A DNA stretch of 64,000 nt from an uncultured Ulvibacter sp. GTDB lineage: Bacteria; Bacteroidota; Bacteroidia; Flavobacteriales; Flavobacteriaceae. The position numbers were made by a program, and so were the translations under genes. The stretch covers positions 49,633-113,632 of the forward strand of contig CAXBES010000014.1 in NCBI GenBank assembly GCA_963974915.1, read 5' to 3'. The notes under the pieces were generated by a model. The model was not told the origin of the DNA. It saw nothing but the letters and a program-made list of their open reading frames with translations, and searched no databases. This document shows, one piece after another, positions 27,517 to 58,030 of this stretch. Position 1 is the first letter of the stretch. Each line of letters begins with the position of its first letter.

Positions 27517-27921
27517 TCAGTCTATGGATGGAGGACGTCTGTTTTTCTTTTTTAAAGCCTGTTCTTTCTTAGACTTTAGTCTTTTCTGAATAGCACTTTT
27601 AGAAGGTTTCGTTTTTTTTCTGGGCTTTGCAACCGTTAAACTCTGCTTCAGTAATTCTAGCATTCGTTCAAGAACGATGGCTTTATTACGATGCTGACTT
27701 CTGGTCTCTCCACATTGTAAAGTTAAAATGCCTTCCGAAGAAATTCTGTTACTGAGTTTTTGCTGTAACCTTTCCTTTTCCAGATCTGTAAAGGCTTCCG
27801 AAGAAATAATATCAAGAGAGATCTCAACTTTAGTGGCAGTTTTATTAACATGTTGCCCACCCGGACCACTACTTCTAACCGCCTTATACTGAAACTCTTT
27901 TATTACGACATCTGTTTGCAT
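27517..27921 (-). CDS. arfB: alternative ribosome rescue factor ArfB (peptidyl-tRNA hydrolase)
   Basis: GGQ motif (SGPGGQHVNKT) and a basic C-terminal tail, about 134 aa. Confidence 0.85.
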   Translation of the reverse strand: MQTDVVIKEFQYKAVRSSGPGGQHVNKTATKVEISLDIISSEAFTDLEKERLQQKLSNRISSEGILTLQCGETRSQHRNKAIVLERMLELLKQSLTVAKPRKKTKPSKSAIQKRLKSKKEQALKKKNRRPPSID

Positions 27922-30017
27922 TAAATACTGGGTCGGTGTTCTTTATTAAGCAAATCGTTAACCGTTTTTACCGGATTAAAAGTTTCGATCGGGACCTCAA
28001 TGCATACAGTGTTCCAATTGGCCATAGAACCATTCCATAGACCGGGACGTTCTAATGCCTTTAGCGGCTTGCCGTTTTCCGACTTGCTGGAAATTAAGCC
28101 TGCTTCCGGATCGATATAGTTTAGCAAATTGAATTTATCACCCTTGTAATCCCTAACCCCGCAAACAATATCTACCGGATTAAAATGCGTTGCTTCATTT
28201 ACTATTGCTTTTTGATGCGGATTGGAAGTATCTATTTGCACCATTTCTACAATTTGAAGTGATATGCGTCCATCTTTTCTAACCCAATACGGGCCACCAC
28301 CCGGGGCACCTGTATTTCTCACCATTCCACACACTCTAATTGGTCTGTTTAAAAGTGAGAAGAATGTAGAAGAATCGTAACTAATTTCCTTAATATTGAG
28401 TTCATTCCATAAAAAAGATTTTATCTCTTTCATTTGTTCCTCGTTCGGTTTCTCTTCTGAAAGAATTCTAAGATAATGAAAGATCTTTCCTTGTAACCAA
28501 AGAAGCTTACCAGCGAGTACTTTTTTATAAAATGCCACGCTTTCCACATAATCTTCGGTAACTACATTATCAATATTCTTAATAAAAATAAGATCTGCAT
28601 CGATCTCGTTTAAATTTTTAATGAGCGCGCCATGACCGGAAGGACGAAATACCAGCTCCCCTTTTTCATTTCTGAAGGGTTTATTCTCCGGCGTTACTGC
28701 AATGGTATCTGTAGCCTTATCCTGAAACGAATACGTAATATTAAAATTTGTTTTGGTCTTTTTACTCACTCTGTTTTTAATTCCTTCAAACTCTTCCTTA
28801 AAGAAGGGTAAATGTTTTTCAGAAAAAGTAAAGTGCAAATAAGCTTCATCGATTGAACACGCGTAAAAGGCGGTTTCATAAAGTTGTTCTTCAAAAGCGG
28901 TAGTCGCGTATTTAGAATACTTATGAAAAGGAATTAAACCTTTTGGAAGTTGTGAAAAGTTGAGACCTTCCTTATCCAACATGGTTTTTACAAAAACATA
29001 AGACCGCATTCCCTTGGTAGAGTGCTTATAGTCTGGATAATTTTCGCGAATTTTTTTCCGTACCATACTAACGAAAGCAAATTCTTTGATGGAACTCAAA
29101 AACCTGCTTAAAGCCGGATAGTTGCCTTTTTTCAGAAAGACATTCAGACTCTGCTTTTCGGGATCATAAAGTTCTAAGAAATTATGCAGAAACTTAAACA
29201 TCCGGGTTGCTGCTCCAGAAGCCGGGATAAACTTAACAAGATCGAGGTGCTCCTTTTTTTCTTCAAAGTGATCGACGAATTTTTGTTTATTATCTTCTGA
29301 AAGTACTTCTATACCATTGCCAACAGATGCCGAAGTAACAATATCTGCAAATGGGATCCCATCAACAAATGTATTTATTTGGTCAACAACTTTTTCTTTA
29401 GACAGCCCATACTCCTCAATTTGCTGTTCATCTTTTTTTGTTAACATACGCTTTGCCTCAATGAGTTTTTTAACGGTTTTAATAGCAATTGCCAGGCGCT
29501 CTTCTTTAGAGCCCTCTAACTTTTGAAAATTAAGGTGGTCGTATTTGTTTAGTTGAGTTTCAAAATTACAAAACAAATTCTCCCTATCATCGGGTCTATC
29601 ACGCAAATCGTCGAAAAAAAATGGCACATCTATGCCTGTAAGTAAGTAAAGTGCGTAAGAATTTTCTTTGGCGTACTTAGCTATCGGTTCCGGACAAAAG
29701 CCATTGTAATAATATTCTGAGTAAACTTTTAACTCCAATAAATTGGTGTCGCAAAAAAGGATGGTATCGGTTTTGGCTGCCGCTTCATTTTCAGCCTTCA
29801 TTTGTCCCACGGCTATAGGCATCAAATCATCTATGGTACATCTCTCCCTTTTGGTATCCCACTTTTCCTGAAGATATTCGCGCATATACTCGGGTACCCA
29901 TAATGTATTAAAATGCTCAGCCAGTTGCTTTGCCAAGGTCGTTTTACCGGTAGATTCGGGGCCGTATAAAACTACTTTTATGCAGCTACAGGGTTGTTGC
30001 TTAAGTGCTTCTTCCAT
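27921..30017 (-). CDS. fusion protein: N-terminal NadR-like P-loop kinase (AAA_28/ribosylnicotinamide kinase-like) + C-terminal DUF4301-like domain with UGPase-like nucleotidyltransferase motifs
   Basis: Walker A GPESTGKTT and an …FCDTNLLELKVYSEYY RNK-like block in residues about 1-190. The C-terminal ~500 aa carry FIPASGAATRMFK and RPSGHGALIKNL…DLIFIKNIDNV, resembling the UDPGP-family G-loop and PGHGD…NIDN motifs. Confidence 0.6.
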   Translation of the reverse strand: MEEALKQQPCSCIKVVLYGPESTGKTTLAKQLAEHFNTLWVPEYMREYLQEKWDTKRERCTIDDLMPIAVGQMKAENEAAAKTDTILFCDTNLLELKVYSEYYYNGFCPEPIAKYAKENSYALYLLTGIDVPFFFDDLRDRPDDRENLFCNFETQLNKYDHLNFQKLEGSKEERLAIAIKTVKKLIEAKRMLTKKDEQQIEEYGLSKEKVVDQINTFVDGIPFADIVTSASVGNGIEVLSEDNKQKFVDHFEEKKEHLDLVKFIPASGAATRMFKFLHNFLELYDPEKQSLNVFLKKGNYPALSRFLSSIKEFAFVSMVRKKIRENYPDYKHSTKGMRSYVFVKTMLDKEGLNFSQLPKGLIPFHKYSKYATTAFEEQLYETAFYACSIDEAYLHFTFSEKHLPFFKEEFEGIKNRVSKKTKTNFNITYSFQDKATDTIAVTPENKPFRNEKGELVFRPSGHGALIKNLNEIDADLIFIKNIDNVVTEDYVESVAFYKKVLAGKLLWLQGKIFHYLRILSEEKPNEEQMKEIKSFLWNELNIKEISYDSSTFFSLLNRPIRVCGMVRNTGAPGGGPYWVRKDGRISLQIVEMVQIDTSNPHQKAIVNEATHFNPVDIVCGVRDYKGDKFNLLNYIDPEAGLISSKSENGKPLKALERPGLWNGSMANWNTVCIEVPIETFNPVKTVNDLLNKEHRPSI

Positions 30018-30610
30018 GAAATATATCCAAAAATGGCTATAAAGGTAAATATAAGATATTGGAAGCTCGTAAAAGTAAACCCTTTATAAAAATAAAGTGG
30101 TACAGAAATCACATCCCCTACGATCCAATATATCCAATTCTCAATTTTTCGTTTGGCCATTAACCACATCCCCACAAAAAAGATCCCTGTAGTTATGGTG
30201 TCTACGTAAGCAGTCCAGTCGTTCCATTTGTCGAAGATCCGGTAAATAACAAATACGAATAAAAGTGTAGCAAGAAATATTAAGATCGAATATTGTTGCT
30301 CCCGTTTTGTGGTTTTCGAAATAGGGGTAACATGAGTCGCATCCACCTTACGAGTCCAAATAAACCAGCCGTAAACACTCATTATAAAATAATAAGCATT
30401 GATCATCATATCGCCCAGCAACGACCATTTTAAAAGTAAATACACGAAGATCGCGGTACTGATCATCCCCGTAGGGAAGACCCAAATTTTGTTCTCTTTA
30501 GAGAACCAAACAGATAAAAATCCAAAGATCACCGCAACGATTTCCAGAACAATATCCACCCTGTCGTAATCCTGATATTGACCAAATAAAAATTCAAAAA
30601 TGGGGCTCAT
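29978..30610 (-). CDS. pnuC: nicotinamide riboside (Pnu-family) transporter
   Basis: 210 aa, polytopic, with the conserved …SVYGWFIW motif. Confidence 0.85.
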   Translation of the reverse strand: MSPIFEFLFGQYQDYDRVDIVLEIVAVIFGFLSVWFSKENKIWVFPTGMISTAIFVYLLLKWSLLGDMMINAYYFIMSVYGWFIWTRKVDATHVTPISKTTKREQQYSILIFLATLLFVFVIYRIFDKWNDWTAYVDTITTGIFFVGMWLMAKRKIENWIYWIVGDVISVPLYFYKGFTFTSFQYLIFTFIAIFGYISWKKHLSNNPVAA

Positions 30611-30854
30611 ACTCGCTTCTGTCGGTTTTTACTATTTTTATATACAGCAATCCATTTTCGACGGCTTCTAAGGCTGTTTTCATTTCCTTCTGAAGTACTT
30701 TCATTACCTGATCATAATCACCGTAAACTTGGGTACTCAACGGATTCTCCAATACTGTTAGTCCCGAGCCTCGCAGTTGTTGAATGAAATTTATAATTGC
30801 AGGCTCAAAAGAATCCTGAAGTGGTGTTAATGTTAATTCTACAGAAATTTTCAT
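30594..30854 (-). CDS. MTH1187/YkoF-family small ligand (thiamine-type)-binding protein
   Basis: 86 aa with a ferredoxin-like fold signature of the YkoF/DUF77 family. Confidence 0.55.
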   Translation of the reverse strand: MKISVELTLTPLQDSFEPAIINFIQQLRGSGLTVLENPLSTQVYGDYDQVMKVLQKEMKTALEAVENGLLYIKIVKTDRSEYEPHF

Positions 30855-30863
30855 ATCCTATTC

Positions 30864-31565
30864 TTAAATTTGAGTTTCATAAACCGTTCCCATAACAACC
30901 ATATCTGCTCCGGCACCGTATGCCTTATTCATTTGTTCTTTTCTTCTAATGCCCCCACCAACGATCAACGGAATCGAAATTGCTTTCTTTACTTCAGAAA
31001 TAATACCTGGTAATACAGGAATTTGGGCTCCACTACCAGCTTCCAAATAGAGCAACTTCGCACCCATGTATTGCCCGGCCAATGCGGTACGAACAATTTG
31101 CAACACATCGTCTTGAGACATTGGGGCAGTGCCACTAACACGTGCAACCGAAGAATTATTCCCGCCATCTACCAATATATAACCTGTTGGGATCACTTCT
31201 AAATTAGTTTTAGATAGTTTTTCTACAGATTTCACCTGCTGACCAATAAGATACTCCGGATTTCGTCCGGAAATAAGGGACAAAAAGAGAAGTGCATCTG
31301 CTCTATCGGTAATTTGAGAATGATCTCCGGGAAAAAGAAAAACCGGTAATTTACAGTTTGCTTTCAGGGCTTTTACCGCCGTTTCTGTATGTCCATTAGC
31401 AACTGTACTTCCACCTACGAACAAATGTGTGGTTTCCTTCGGGATTTTCTTCAGAAAAGAAGTCACTTCAGAAATAGAAAATTTATCCGGATCTATTAAA
31501 ATAGCAAGGCATTTTTGTTTTTCAGAAATAAGTTTCAGAATAGAATTGTAATGCATTAATATCAT
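30864..31565 (-). CDS. geranylgeranylglyceryl/heptaprenylglyceryl phosphate synthase family protein (PcrB/GGGPS-like)
   Basis: TIM-barrel GGGPS signature (…LFVGGST…GADMVVMGT…). Confidence 0.7.
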   Translation of the reverse strand: MILMHYNSILKLISEKQKCLAILIDPDKFSISEVTSFLKKIPKETTHLFVGGSTVANGHTETAVKALKANCKLPVFLFPGDHSQITDRADALLFLSLISGRNPEYLIGQQVKSVEKLSKTNLEVIPTGYILVDGGNNSSVARVSGTAPMSQDDVLQIVRTALAGQYMGAKLLYLEAGSGAQIPVLPGIISEVKKAISIPLIVGGGIRRKEQMNKAYGAGADMVVMGTVYETQI

Positions 31566-31567
31566 TT

Positions 31568-32197
31568 TTATTGAAGTAATGCGTAGGCGCAAGTAAACTC
31601 GTCGAATTCCAGAAAACTAACATCATAATCAACTCTCACATCTTCAAAGCTAACATTGGCGGTGGTATCACTGGCTTCCAGTCTAAAATCTTCTACATAA
31701 ATATTCTGAATAAAACTCACCCCAGGGGTAGCGAAACTTTTATAGAGCGATTCTTTGGCGCACCAAACAATAGTTAGCTTTCGCATAATAGCATCGTCGT
31801 TGGCCAAAGTTCGGTATTCTTCAATTGGCGTAAATTTGTGAGCGATCTTTAAGATCTTTAATCGCTGTTTTTCTATATCAATCCCTACCTCCATATCACT
31901 TACGATGATAGCCGAAAAAATAAACGAATGAGTGATAGAAATATGTTTATCGTCCTTTAAATGCGGTTTCCCATGGTCGTCGTAATACAAATCGAAATCT
32001 GTATAACCCTCAAGAGCTAAAAGTTTCCTTACACTCATAAAACCCCGGCGATGCAGATCACTTTTCATTCCATCTACTCGCTCCCTGCAATGTGTAGTGA
32101 GCTCAACTCCCCGAGAGAGTTCATCAAACGATTCTTCTATCTTCCAAATGAGGACTTTAGTGCTTTTGTTAACTGTTATAGTTTTGTAAAGAGGCAT
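31568..32197 (-). CDS. 4'-phosphopantetheinyl transferase family protein
   Basis: PPTase motifs (…GIDIE… and W-C-A-K-E-S-L-Y-K). Confidence 0.7.
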   Translation of the reverse strand: MPLYKTITVNKSTKVLIWKIEESFDELSRGVELTTHCRERVDGMKSDLHRRGFMSVRKLLALEGYTDFDLYYDDHGKPHLKDDKHISITHSFIFSAIIVSDMEVGIDIEKQRLKILKIAHKFTPIEEYRTLANDDAIMRKLTIVWCAKESLYKSFATPGVSFIQNIYVEDFRLEASDTTANVSFEDVRVDYDVSFLEFDEFTCAYALLQ

Positions 32198-52692: not shown

Positions 52693-53418
52693 TTAATCGT
52701 TTTTTAGTATATGTTCTCGCAAGGTTTCGTAATAAGGTAGTGCCTCTTGTAACAAGGGTGAAAGTCTTTCAGACAAAGGCTCAGAGCTGCTTTTCTGTAG
52801 TGCAAATCCTTCAGAATTATGAACATTCTTATACCAATGTGGTGCCCAAACTCCGTCCTGAGGTATTCCTCCTTTGTTCCAGCTAAGCATTTCTTCAGAA
52901 TAAGACAAGTCTAATAAACCGCAAAGCTTCTTTAGATAACTTGACGGTGCTTTTAACAGCTCATCGCTATCAATAACTATTGGTGTTCTATTGCTTTCCT
53001 TCAGAAATAAAAACAATTCCGAAGCCTTTTTAACACCAATATCATCGAGTGTTGGGTTTTCTATCACTTTTGAAAATGAAGCGATCAACTTTTTAGGGTG
53101 ACGTATTAAAATTACATTCTCCCATTGGGTTATATATTTGGGGTCATTAGACAAATAGTGATGTGCCATTCCCTTTACGAACACATTTTTACCTGTCGCC
53201 AAACTATTTATTTGTGCAACGATATTATCTTCTTGCTGCTCCATCGTATTTAGGATCGCATCATGAGCCGGGTGGTTTATTATTACATTCGCATTCTTTA
53301 GATAAAAGGCATAAAAAGGTTCGTCTAAAACTTCAAAATCGGCGCGTTGTGCAAAGGAATACATTATTGCCGTCGAAAGATTTCTGGGCCCCGAAATGAG
53401 ATTAACGACTTTGTTCAT
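52693..53418 (-). CDS. sulfotransferase-like P-loop protein
   Basis: [10 protein letters not shown]-loop-like 5'-PSB motif. The start at MNKVV (53418) is preferred. Confidence 0.4.
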
Positions 53419-53469
53419 GTCTATAAAAGTAAGCGAAAAATTTAGAAGTCTGGAGTCAAAAGTCAAGAG

Positions 53470-53562
53470 ACGGGAGTCGGGAGACGGGAGTTGGGAGTTG
53501 GGAGTTGGAAGTTGGGAGTTGGGAGTTGGGAGTTGGGAGTTGGGAGTTGGGAGTTGGGAGTT
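53470..53562. repeat. heptanucleotide microsatellite (GGGAGTT)n, about 13 units (minus strand AACTCCC)
   Basis: Direct reading: GACGGGAGTC GGGAGAC then GGGAGTT x ~10 with one GGAAGTT variant. Confidence 0.95.
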
Positions 53563-53640
53563 TAATAAGTATAAATATAAAAGACCCAAACATTACTGTC
53601 TGAGTCTTTCTACTTTAAAATTTGATCTTTTTCTTTAGGT

Positions 53641-57223: not shown

Positions 57224-58030
57224 TTAAAGTACTTTAGTCTCGTAAAAGTCTAAATAAGCCTGTGAAAAATCATCAAAATTATGATACTTTAACACAGGTT
57301 TGTCGAGATTGTTAAGAAACTCTTCCAGTTCTTCAGGAATTTCTTCGGAACCAACAATAACAGCATCCGAATTATTAATCGCAACCTTCATGACATTCTC
57401 ATAACTCGGTGTCTCTAAAGGTGCAATAACATCTTCTTCGATCGCGTCAAATCTAATTTTATCAATAGTTGTATTATCTAACGTACCGGTGAAGCCTTGA
57501 TTGTATACAGAAGTAACTATTTTACTATTTTCGAATAAGGGTTCGTTTCCGTAGTAATTTCTCAGGTAAAGTGGCAAAAACGAAGCCAACCATCCATGAA
57601 CATGGATAATATCTGGTGACCAATTCAGCTTTTTCACAGTTTCTATTACCCCTTTTGCGAAGAAAATAGCACGTTCATCGTTATCCGGAAAGAAAACTCC
57701 ATCTTCATCGGCGTACGTTGCTTTGCGTTTAAAATAATCTTCATTATCTATAAAGTATACCTGCATTCTTTCCTTCGGAATTGACGCTACTTTAATGATA
57801 AGTGGCATATCAAGATCGTTAATCACAAGATTCATCCCCGAAAGGCGAATCACTTCGTGTAGTTGGTGTCGACGCTCATTAATATTGCCATAACGTGGCA
57901 TAAAAATTCGAATTTGCCCGTTATTGTTGTTTACCATTTTAGGGGCTTCAAACGACATTGAAGAAATCTCGGTCTCCGGTAGGTATGGAATAACTTCAGA
58001 AGACACGTACAAGACTCTCTTATCTTTCAT
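57224..58030 (-). CDS. glgA: glycogen synthase-like protein (GT5 N-terminal domain only, short form)
   Basis: Starch-synthase catalytic-domain N-terminus (…VSSEV…P…K…GGL-like), only 268 aa. Confidence 0.6.
   Translation of the reverse strand: MKDKRVLYVSSEVIPYLPETEISSMSFEAPKMVNNNNGQIRIFMPRYGNINERRHQLHEVIRLSGMNLVINDLDMPLIIKVASIPKERMQVYFIDNEDYFKRKATYADEDGVFFPDNDERAIFFAKGVIETVKKLNWSPDIIHVHGWLASFLPLYLRNYYGNEPLFENSKIVTSVYNQGFTGTLDNTTIDKIRFDAIEEDVIAPLETPSYENVMKVAINNSDAVIVGSEEIPEELEEFLNNLDKPVLKYHNFDDFSQAYLDFYETKVL

What the first reader, a model, noticed from the sequence alone, without database searches (positions are those of the whole stretch)
27921..30017. NadR-like P-loop kinase fused to a UGPase-like nucleotidyltransferase (DUF4301-type) domain, next to PnuC
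A single 698-aa frame joins two domains. The N-terminal part is an AAA_28/ribosylnicotinamide-kinase-like P-loop kinase (GPESTGKTT; FCDTNLLELKVYSEYY). The C-terminal ~500 aa carry a glycine-rich loop (FIPASGAATRMFK) and an RPSGHGALIKNL…IFIKNIDNV block. These look like the nucleotide-binding loop and the PGHGD/NVDN motifs of UDP-glucose-pyrophosphorylase-family nucleotidyltransferases. A kinase followed by a nucleotidyltransferase is the logic of NadR (NR -> NMN -> NAD), but here the second domain is a different fold, the order is reversed, and the gene overlaps pnuC by 40 nt. It could be a non-orthologous NadR analogue, or a two-step activator (X -> X-P -> NDP-X) of another imported substrate.
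Basis: partly seen in the sequence, partly recalled or inferred. Interest (0 to 1): 0.7.

Follow-up and report, generated by a model that had tools for sequence, protein, structure and literature searches.

The report
Nicotinamide-riboside kinase fused to DUF4301 enzyme
A genuine 698-residue gene joins a nicotinamide-riboside-type kinase to DUF4301, a widespread but unstudied Bacteroidota enzyme with the fold and catalytic motifs of sugar-nucleotide pyrophosphorylases, directly behind a vitamin-transporter gene; this suggests, but does not prove, a structurally new enzyme for the last step of NAD salvage.

Summary

The fusion is real. It recurs in independent assemblies and both halves are under purifying selection (dN/dS 0.08 and 0.04). 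It is also rare: in most Flavobacteriaceae the two genes are separate but overlapping, within a conserved ThiBP-pnuC-kinase-DUF4301 cassette. Fusion arose in at least four lineages, always behind pnuC.

DUF4301 also occurs alone, with no pnuC or kinase nearby, in 80/80 Bacteroidales-type loci. I found no literature on DUF4301 function.

Best reading (confidence about 0.4): PnuC imports nicotinamide riboside, the kinase makes NMN, and DUF4301 replaces the missing NMNAT half of NadR. Serious rivals are activation of another imported compound and a housekeeping UDP-sugar pyrophosphorylase. Biochemistry is needed to decide.

The parts
27921..30017 (-). Fusion ORF, 698 aa: RNK-like kinase joined to DUF4301
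   Evidence: Purifying selection on both halves. Fused orthologues P0001 and P0002.
29496..29978 (-). Kinase domain (res 14-174), AAA_28 / NadR-RNK type. Motifs: Walker A GPESTGKTT 29937-29963, EYMREY 29874-29891, Walker B FCDTN 29742-29756, LID DDLRDRPDDR within 29583-29621.
29430..29459 (-). Fusion junction ...EAKR|MLTKKD. The ancestral DUF4301 start codon (Met191, 29445-29447) is retained in frame.
   Evidence: In L001 the same ATG lies 14 nt before the kinase stop codon, in another frame.
27933..29441 (-). DUF4301 domain (res 193-695), UGPase-fold nucleotidyltransferase. Motifs: glycine loop FIPASGAATRMFK 29193-29231, LPKGLIPFH 28923-28949, RPSGHGAL 28623-28646, FIKNIDNV 28563-28586, NTGAPGGGPYW 28284-28316, THFNPVD 28170-28190, ERPGLWNGSMANW 28014-28052, FNPVKTVNDLL 27948-27980.
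29978..30610 (-). PnuC-family transporter, 210 aa. Overlaps the fusion by 40 nt. Carries the WxxWxxxD motif (WIYWIVGD).
   Evidence: Present next to DUF4301 in 77/84 Flavobacteriaceae loci and directly upstream of every fused lineage looked up.
30594..30854 (-). Small 86-aa protein of the Thiamine_BP / MTH1187 (UPF0045) family. Overlaps pnuC by 17 nt. An accessory member of the cassette.
   Evidence: Pfam E 2.6e-07. PDB 2ibo at 7e-4. Present in 65/84 Flavobacteriaceae loci but absent from L085, L171 and L172.
27517..27921 (-). ArfB-like RF-1 domain protein. Its start shares one base with the fusion's stop (TAATG). A syntenic neighbour, probably not functionally linked.
   Evidence: Present in 63/84 Flavobacteriaceae loci and absent from L085.

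Best explanation
The ORF is a true gene fusion of two genes that are normally separate but translationally coupled. They belong to a conserved Flavobacteriaceae cassette: small ThiBP-like protein, pnuC, RNK-like kinase, DUF4301.

Proposed mechanism:
1. PnuC lets nicotinamide riboside (NR) diffuse into the cell (inferred from family membership and from the partner kinase).
2. The N-terminal domain phosphorylates NR with ATP to give NMN, which traps it (inferred from close structural and motif similarity to biochemically validated NadR kinase domains).
3. The C-terminal DUF4301 domain is a UGPase-fold nucleotidyltransferase with its catalytic motifs intact. It transfers a nucleotidyl group, most likely AMP from ATP, onto the phosphate of NMN to give NAD+ and pyrophosphate. 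It would thus stand in for the NMN adenylyltransferase half that NadR has and this cassette lacks (inferred from position, fusion and chemistry; not shown).

Stand-alone DUF4301 in other Bacteroidota would act on endogenous NMN.

Shown here: the domain identities, the folds, that the fusion is real and recurrent, and its linkage to pnuC. Not shown: any substrate.
For: Kinase is RNK-type:
- A family profile hits NadR kinase domains over the full domain: 9x6f 5.5e-25, 1lw7 2.4e-18, 8x7f 3.4e-18.
- 16 of 19 checked RNK motif positions are kept.
- 9x6f is Bas30_86, an experimentally validated NR kinase/NMNAT that works with a PnuC (PMC13464706).

No NMNAT domain in the cassette:
- Only the RNK part of the nadR models matches.
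- The closest kinase homologues are AAA_28-only proteins of about 190 aa.

DUF4301 is a nucleotidyltransferase:
- Foldseek's top 30 hits are all UGPase/UAP (E 3e-11 to 2.5e-6).
- Collinear motif counterparts include the catalytic-lysine block PVKxxxDLL.
- The motifs are at least 95% conserved across 151 sequences.
- The same superfamily contains enzymes acting on non-sugar phosphates, such as IspD, LicC, CobY and MobA.

Functional coupling:
- Kinase and DUF4301 overlap or lie within 30 nt in 45 of 49 resolvable split loci.
- Fusion occurred in at least four lineages.
- pnuC lies directly upstream in the fused lineages with different flanks (L085, L171, L172).
- In L173 pnuC abuts DUF4301 with no kinase between them.
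- Both halves are under purifying selection.
Against: - No substrate evidence of any kind was obtained.
- In 80/80 Bacteroidales-type loci, and in L087-L090 and L174, DUF4301 has no pnuC or kinase nearby. Its core role is therefore independent of NR import.
- To my knowledge every known NMNAT has a different, HIGH-motif Rossmann fold. The nearest structural relatives of DUF4301 all use sugar-1-phosphates, and positions aligned to sugar-region Asn and Glu residues in UGPase appear retained.
- Bacteroidetes carry GT3-family glycogen synthases, the family that uses UDP-glucose in heterotrophic eukaryotes (PMC11046441).
- The ThiBP-family neighbour hints at a thiamine-like ligand.
- No NAD-related gene, regulator or riboswitch was found near DUF4301.
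- The window's own kinase has D122A, the equivalent of D275 in Bas30_86 whose D275A mutant is impaired, and W133F.
- DUF4301 is not used by phages in NAD-restoring cassettes.
Confidence: 0.4

Rival explanations
1. Two-step activation of a different imported compound. The Pnu-family transporter and the RNK-like kinase act on a substrate other than NR, such as a thiamine-related compound, another nucleoside or a vitamin-like molecule. DUF4301 then converts the phosphorylated product X-P into NDP-X.
For: Pnu transporters of different specificities share the same motifs, and specificity is usually inferred from the partner kinase (PMC5749112). The window transporter has D in WxxWxxxD, as PnuT does, where the solved NR transporter has N. 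A Thiamine_BP-family gene is translationally coupled to pnuC in 65/84 loci. The window kinase deviates at two positions conserved in NadR kinases. The kinase-then-nucleotidyltransferase logic holds whatever the substrate.
Against: The kinase's closest characterised relatives by sequence profile and by structure are NadR NR-kinase domains, with a clear gap to other kinases. No TPP riboswitch was found in the window or in 10 related loci. The ThiBP gene is absent from three fused lineages that keep pnuC. DUF4301 occurs without the transporter in many lineages, so X-P must also be an endogenous metabolite, which NMN is.
Confidence: 0.25
2. DUF4301 is a housekeeping sugar-1-phosphate nucleotidyltransferase of Bacteroidota, for example the UDP-glucose pyrophosphorylase that feeds the GT3 glycogen synthase, or another UDP-sugar pyrophosphorylase. 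Its link to pnuC and the kinase in Flavobacteriales would then reflect something other than consecutive reactions.
For: The best structural matches are UGPase, UAP and USP. 34 of 48 members touch Pfam UDPGP. The motif map includes positions aligned to UGPase sugar-region residues. DUF4301 is a widespread stand-alone gene with varied neighbourhoods and 0/80 Pnu or kinase linkage in Bacteroidales-type loci. Bacteroidetes carry GT3-family glycogen synthases, the family that uses UDP-glucose in heterotrophic eukaryotes (PMC11046441). The protein is expressed in rumen Prevotella (PMC7035244).
Against: At least four independent fusions to an NR-kinase-like domain, plus tight translational coupling, are hard to explain for unrelated functions. 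pnuC adjacency persists in unrelated genomic contexts. The UGPase LETAAGAA segment is replaced by an invariant ELPGLWNG..W segment, and an insertion of about 85 residues separates the glycine loop from the PK motif. No glycogen-synthase-type or GlmS gene lies within about 6 kb in 175 loci. The Pfam UDPGP score is below threshold.
Confidence: 0.2
3. DUF4301 is a non-catalytic nucleotide-binding or regulatory module that senses a nucleotide and modulates the kinase or the transporter. Some eIF2B subunits are precedents for this fold without catalysis.
Against: Counterparts of the catalytic Arg, His, Asp and Lys motifs are at least 95% conserved across a family 37-50% identical to the window. The family is mostly stand-alone, with no partner to regulate.
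Confidence: 0.05
4. The fusion is an assembly or sequencing artefact: a one-base error joined two overlapping genes.
For: Most relatives have two genes overlapping by a few bases, so a single indel would fuse them.
Against: The same 698-aa frame is found at 99% and 82% identity in independent assemblies on several contigs. dS is above 1 with dN/dS 0.04-0.08 across the junction-spanning gene. Further fused lineages exist.
Confidence: 0.02

Closest known systems
NadR (bifunctional NMN adenylyltransferase / ribosylnicotinamide kinase, working with PnuC); includes the phage NARP3 pair Bas30_86/87
   Different: There is no HTH domain and no HIGH-motif Rossmann NMNAT domain. The second domain has an unrelated fold (GT-A/UGPase type). 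The domain order is reversed, with the kinase first. In most species the two activities are separate genes. The NMN to NAD step is not demonstrated.
Eukaryote-type UDP-glucose / UDP-GlcNAc / UDP-sugar pyrophosphorylases (Pfam UDPGP, PF01704)
   Different: Sequence identity is only 11-20%, and Pfam UDPGP scores below threshold. An insertion of about 85 residues follows the glycine loop. The ETAAGAA segment is replaced by an invariant PGLWNG..W segment. The glycine loop carries Arg, as in UAP and bacterial transferases. The family is confined to Bacteroidota in my samples, and the substrate is unknown.
[not shown]
   Same: The logic is X to X-P to NDP-X, with a nucleotidyltransferase of the same broad superfamily. 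The pair is sometimes fused and often sits next to an uptake gene.
   Different: The kinases in those systems belong to the GHMP or APH families and phosphorylate sugars or choline. Here the kinase is a P-loop nucleoside-type kinase and the transporter is a Pnu vitamin facilitator.
MobA and CobY (dinucleotide-cofactor-forming guanylyltransferases with the same core fold)
   Different: They are much smaller single-domain enzymes, act on different substrates, and share no specific sequence relationship with DUF4301.

Membership tests
Pfam DUF4301 (PF14134) | Full-length match to the family HMM above the gathering score | tested here: met
   665.5 bits against a cut-off of 27; model positions 1-507 of 507.
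Pfam AAA_28 / NadR-type ribosylnicotinamide kinase (RNK) domain | HMM match plus the RNK fold | tested here: met
   [not shown]
Pfam AAA_28 / NadR-type ribosylnicotinamide kinase (RNK) domain | Conserved RNK motifs: GxESxGK[ST], EYxRxY, Walker B DT[DN], Y/F-D, WxxDxLR, Arg of the LID | tested here: inconclusive
   16 of 19 checked positions are kept. The window and its fused clade have A/N122 in place of D (the D275 equivalent of Bas30_86) and F133 in place of W. E76 is shared only with the phage enzyme.
Pfam AAA_28 / NadR-type ribosylnicotinamide kinase (RNK) domain | Phosphorylates nicotinamide riboside | not testable with these tools
   Requires an enzyme assay.
NadR (TIGR01526 / NF005988) | N-terminal NMN adenylyltransferase domain (HIGH-motif Rossmann fold), with or without an HTH | tested here: not met
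   Only model positions 164-323 of 325 (the RNK part) match. 89.3 bits against a cut-off of 341; NF005988 gives 56.4 against 201. It is not a NadR.
UDPGP family (PF01704; UGPase/UAP/USP) | Sequence match above Pfam's gathering score | tested here: not met
   15.7 bits against a cut-off of 22, covering only res 478-504 of the domain. 34 of 48 relatives hit at E of 1 or better, best 4.9e-08.
UDPGP family (PF01704; UGPase/UAP/USP) | Three-dimensional fold | tested here: met
   [not shown]
UDPGP family (PF01704; UGPase/UAP/USP) | Catalytic motifs: glycine-rich nucleotide loop, PK, PxGHG, NxDN, PVK lysine | tested here: met
   There is a collinear hhalign alignment (E 0.005, weak on its own) and a C-terminal block alignment. 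The motifs are at least 95% conserved in 151 sequences. The glycine loop was matched by eye.
UDPGP family (PF01704; UGPase/UAP/USP) | Uses a sugar-1-phosphate and UTP | not testable with these tools
   Requires an enzyme assay.
PnuC (NR transporter) | Family HMM above cut-off, and the WxxWxxxD/N motif | tested here: met
   TIGR01528 107.6 bits against 42.45. 4QTN at E 3.1e-09 and the motif WIYWIVGD. The motif is described in PMC5749112.
PnuC (NR transporter) | Specificity for nicotinamide riboside rather than thiamine or riboflavin | not testable with these tools
   Inferred only from the partner kinase and from the absence of a TPP riboswitch.

The most novel reading that the evidence does not exclude
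DUF4301 is a previously unrecognised class of NMN (pyridine-nucleotide) adenylyltransferase built on the UGPase/GT-A nucleotidyltransferase fold. It would be an analogous enzyme unrelated to all known NadD/NadM/NadR/NMNAT proteins. It would be used across Bacteroidota, including gut Bacteroidales, to turn NMN into NAD. In Flavobacteriales it would be coupled, and repeatedly fused, to an NR kinase and PnuC to form a NadR-like salvage module by non-orthologous replacement.
Probability: 0.3. Interest if true: 0.8.

Novelty: new variant of a known kind. Interest (0 to 1): 0.6.

Why it matters
DUF4301 is a large family: at least 1301 clusters at 50% identity score E ≤ 1e-30. It is strongly conserved, found across Bacteroidota in marine, gut and rumen samples, and detected as protein in the rumen. 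I found no functional study of it.

This window offers a Rosetta-stone clue. The family is repeatedly fused to an NR-kinase-like domain and coupled to a Pnu transporter. That converts "domain of unknown function" into a short list of testable reactions.

If the product is NAD, it would add a structurally new solution to an essential step of cofactor metabolism. It would also change how NAD salvage is reconstructed in Bacteroidota genomes and gut-microbiome vitamin-B3 models. It would correct widespread mis-annotations too: kinase-only proteins are named "NadR type nicotinamide-nucleotide adenylyltransferase", and some DUF4301 proteins are named "NAD metabolism ATPase/kinase".

If it instead proves to be a UDP-sugar pyrophosphorylase, the recurrent fusion to an NR-type kinase would itself need explaining.

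Tried and rejected
- **Sequence searches of DUF4301 against PDB.** A single sequence, a family profile and a member carrying a UDPGP hit all gave nothing significant. The fold had to be established from a predicted structure.
- **hhalign of the narrow alignment against one UGPase.** It recovered only the C-terminal block. Global mode failed. Local mode with the diverse alignment gave a collinear but statistically weak alignment.
- **Riboswitch or other RNA regulation.** There were no Rfam hits in the window. Ten related loci gave only tRNAs and one Flavo-1 RNA.
- **Promoter and terminator scan.** It was uninformative: counts were at chance level, and Bacteroidota promoters are not covered.
- **Defence-system profiles (PADLOC).** Only trivial P-loop hits.
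- **Phage-borne NAD-restoring cassette idea.** There was no DUF4301 in IMG/VR, and only three short unannotated faecal-virome contigs in the phage set.
- **Conserved partner in Bacteroidales-type loci.** The commonest neighbour is a divergently transcribed RelA/SpoT (33/84 loci), followed by a PdxB-like dehydrogenase (7). I see no pathway logic in either.
- **Glycogen or amino-sugar neighbourhood test.** No hits.
- **Full-length fusion model.** MAFFT aligned the stand-alone kinases onto the DUF4301 region (A4), so I did not submit that alignment.
- **afdb50 fold library.** Unavailable.
- **Literature.** "DUF4301" appears in one paper, as a table row; PF14134 and IPR025393 appear in none. Two older NAD papers could not be retrieved.
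- **Whole-genome profiles.** Presence or absence of NadD, NadM, PncC, GalU and GlmU could not be examined with these tools.
Full report
**Observation.** The minus-strand ORF 27921-30017 is real: 698 aa with an ATG start. Pfam splits it into AAA_28 (res 14-174, E 1.5e-35) and DUF4301 (res 193-695, E 7.4e-200, full model length). The gene lies in a tightly packed minus-strand run: ACPS, PcrB/GGGPS-like, an 86-aa Thiamine_BP-family protein, PnuC, the fusion, and ArfB. Three overlaps link the last four genes: ThiBP/pnuC 17 nt, pnuC/fusion 40 nt, and fusion/arfB sharing one base.

**Is the fusion genuine?** Yes. A 99%-identical and an 82%-identical 698-aa protein come from other assemblies with the same synteny. 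Codon comparison with the 82% orthologue gives dN/dS 0.077 for the kinase and 0.043 for DUF4301, at near-saturated dS. The frame has therefore been kept for a long time and both halves are constrained.

The fusion is nevertheless the exception. In Ulvibacter antarcticus the same cassette has a 196-aa kinase and a 509-aa DUF4301 overlapping by 14 nt. The DUF4301 ATG lies inside the last kinase codons in another frame. In the window that ATG (Met191) is in frame.

Across the 82 loci that have both genes, 9 are fused, representing 6 distinct lineages. In the species-level genome sample only 2 of 74 are fused. Of the 49 split pairs whose start could be placed, 30 overlap (most often by 4 nt) and 15 lie within 30 nt.

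Nearest-neighbour comparison shows the fused proteins are polyphyletic. P0039's closest relatives are unfused (85% identity). P0126 with the Flavobacterium loci, P0133 and P0182 form further separate lineages in which the internal Met has been lost. This rests on nearest-neighbour identities, not a formal tree.

Bas30_86 is an experimentally validated NR kinase/NMNAT that works with a PnuC (PMC13464706). Of 19 RNK motif positions checked, 16 are kept. The window's fused clade uniquely carries D122A/N and W133F. D122 is the equivalent of D275, whose mutation impaired Bas30_86. D occurs in 94/120 relatives and W in 119/120, and all three NadRs have both. I cannot explain this.

The closest homologues are AAA_28-only proteins of about 190 aa. 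Pipelines often name them "NadR type nicotinamide-nucleotide adenylyltransferase" although they have no such domain.

**DUF4301 half.** Sequence searches against PDB found nothing. An AlphaFold model from a 48-sequence alignment is confident (pLDDT 90.3, pTM 0.90).

34 of 48 family members touch Pfam UDPGP, below threshold. Using the genuine A. thaliana UGPase sequence printed by the PDB search, hhalign gives a collinear but weak alignment (E 0.005). It pairs PK, PxGHG, NxDN, (K/G)GG, LQxxE, FN, the E..(PG/AA) segment and PVKxxxDLL. DUF4301 also has an insertion of about 85 residues after the glycine loop. These motifs are at least 95% conserved in 151 sequences that are only 37-50% identical to the window.

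DUF4301 is thus very probably an active nucleotidyltransferase with one strict substrate.

**Family and context.** The family is large: 3318 clusters at 50% identity with E ≤ 1e-3, and 1301 with E ≤ 1e-30. Nearly all members are stand-alone proteins of about 500 aa.

- In 84 Flavobacteriaceae loci, PnuC is present in 77, the kinase in 78 and ThiBP in 65. These are lower bounds, because some contigs are cut.
- The linkage is not mere synteny. In L085, a distant Bacteroidota MAG with completely different flanks, and in L172, pnuC is still directly followed by a fusion; L171 shows the same in a Flavobacteriales-like context. In L173 pnuC abuts DUF4301 with no kinase between them.
- In 80 Bacteroidales-type metagenome loci, none has PnuC, the kinase or ThiBP nearby. 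The same holds for five sampled distant loci.
- The only frequent neighbour in those loci is a divergent RelA/SpoT (33/84), followed by a PdxB-like gene (7).
- A few Flavobacteriaceae (L067, L071, L073) keep DUF4301 but lack pnuC and the kinase.

DUF4301 is therefore the core gene, and the transporter and kinase are lineage-specific feeders. Its substrate should be an endogenous metabolite that can also be made by phosphorylating an imported compound.

**Mechanism.** NMN fits that description. It arises endogenously, for example from NAD-dependent DNA ligase (established knowledge), and it is the product of NR kinase. In canonical systems the kinase is fused to an NMNAT (NadR). Here the NMNAT is missing and DUF4301 occupies the neighbouring position, repeatedly fused.

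I therefore favour this sequence: PnuC imports NR, the kinase makes NMN, and DUF4301 makes NAD. My confidence in the whole chain is about 0.4.

- Shown: the domain identities, the folds, motif conservation, a real and recurrent fusion, and the pnuC linkage.
- Inferred: all substrates and the product.

**Rivals.**
1. **A different imported substrate (0.25).** Support comes from the ThiBP neighbour, the transporter's D-type motif and the kinase substitutions. Against it are the kinase's specific similarity to NR kinases and the absence of a TPP riboswitch.
2. **A housekeeping sugar-1-phosphate pyrophosphorylase (0.2).** Support comes from the nearest structural relatives, the Pnu-independent distribution, and the GT3-family glycogen synthases of Bacteroidetes (PMC11046441). 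Against it are the recurrent fusion to a nucleoside-type kinase, the replaced sugar-region segment, and the lack of glycogen or amino-sugar neighbours.
3. **A non-catalytic regulator (0.05).**
4. **An artefact (0.02).**

**Comparison with known systems and novelty.** The protein works like NadR in layout, pairing a kinase with a nucleotidyltransferase beside PnuC. It fails NadR membership because it has no NMNAT domain and no HTH. Its second domain is a structural relative of the UDPGP family but fails Pfam membership by sequence. DUF4301 and the fused architecture already exist in public databases. I found no functional literature. I rate it a new variant of a known kind, with a realistic chance (about 0.3) that it is an NMNAT on a new fold.

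Noticed in passing
window 29646-29660 (res 120-124) and 29583-29621 (res 133-145): The window's kinase and its fused clade carry A/N122 and F133. Most relatives (94/120 and 119/120), all other fused lineages and three NadR kinase domains have D and W at these positions. D122 corresponds to D275 of Bas30_86, whose mutation impaired that enzyme. The kinase is still under purifying selection (dN/dS 0.077).
   Followed up: partly
window 30594-30854 (-): An 86-aa Thiamine_BP / MTH1187 (UPF0045) family protein is translationally coupled to pnuC (17-nt overlap). It is conserved in 65/84 Flavobacteriaceae loci but absent from other pnuC-fusion loci. Its ligand and role are unknown.
   Followed up: partly
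L173 2-184 and 142-1773: The C-terminus of a PnuC directly abuts and overlaps a 543-aa DUF4301, with no kinase gene between them, followed by arfB. The contig is short, so a kinase elsewhere cannot be excluded.
   Followed up: partly
L091-L170 (e.g. L106 3642-6170, minus strand): In Bacteroidales-type loci the commonest neighbour of DUF4301 is a divergently transcribed RelA/SpoT (p)ppGpp synthetase/hydrolase (33/84 loci, 26 of them within 300 nt). A PdxB-like dehydrogenase lies directly upstream on the same strand in 7 loci.
   Followed up: partly
proteins P0097, P0100, P0271, P0302, P0297 and others: Database names are inconsistent and probably wrong. Stand-alone DUF4301 proteins are called 'NAD metabolism ATPase/kinase'. 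Kinase-only proteins of about 190 aa are called 'NadR type nicotinamide-nucleotide adenylyltransferase' or 'HTH-type transcriptional repressor of NAD biosynthesis genes'.
   Followed up: no
window 57224-58030 (-): A 268-aa ORF consists only of the GT5 starch/glycogen-synthase catalytic domain (PF08323, E 7e-51). This matches the 'GlgA-GT5 fragment' that a review says Bacteroidetes retain alongside a GT3 glycogen synthase.
   Followed up: partly
window 53472-53562: A tandem array of 13 copies of the 7-nt unit GGGAGTT (94% matches). It lies at the 5' end, or just upstream, of a sulfotransferase-domain ORF (52693-53589, minus strand), where it reads as NSQLPTP repeats. It is probably intergenic or a phase-variable start region.
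   Followed up: no
window 30864-31592 (-): A PcrB / geranylgeranylglyceryl-phosphate-synthase-family gene (NF003198, 269 bits, above cut-off) sits 9 nt upstream of the ThiBP gene. It is present in only part of the related loci.
   Followed up: no
L171 3641-3707 (-): A Flavo-1 RNA (RF01705, 47.7 bits against a gathering score of 42) lies in the ahcY/ACPS intergenic region of a related locus. No Rfam family reached threshold in the window itself.
   Followed up: no
phage records MT839125.1, MT837672.1, MT837181.1 (hits H1-H3): Three short (4.5-7.5 kb) unannotated 'Bacteriophage sp.' contigs from human faecal viromes encode DUF4301 at 43-56% identity. They are probably bacterial DNA carried over into virome data.
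   Followed up: no
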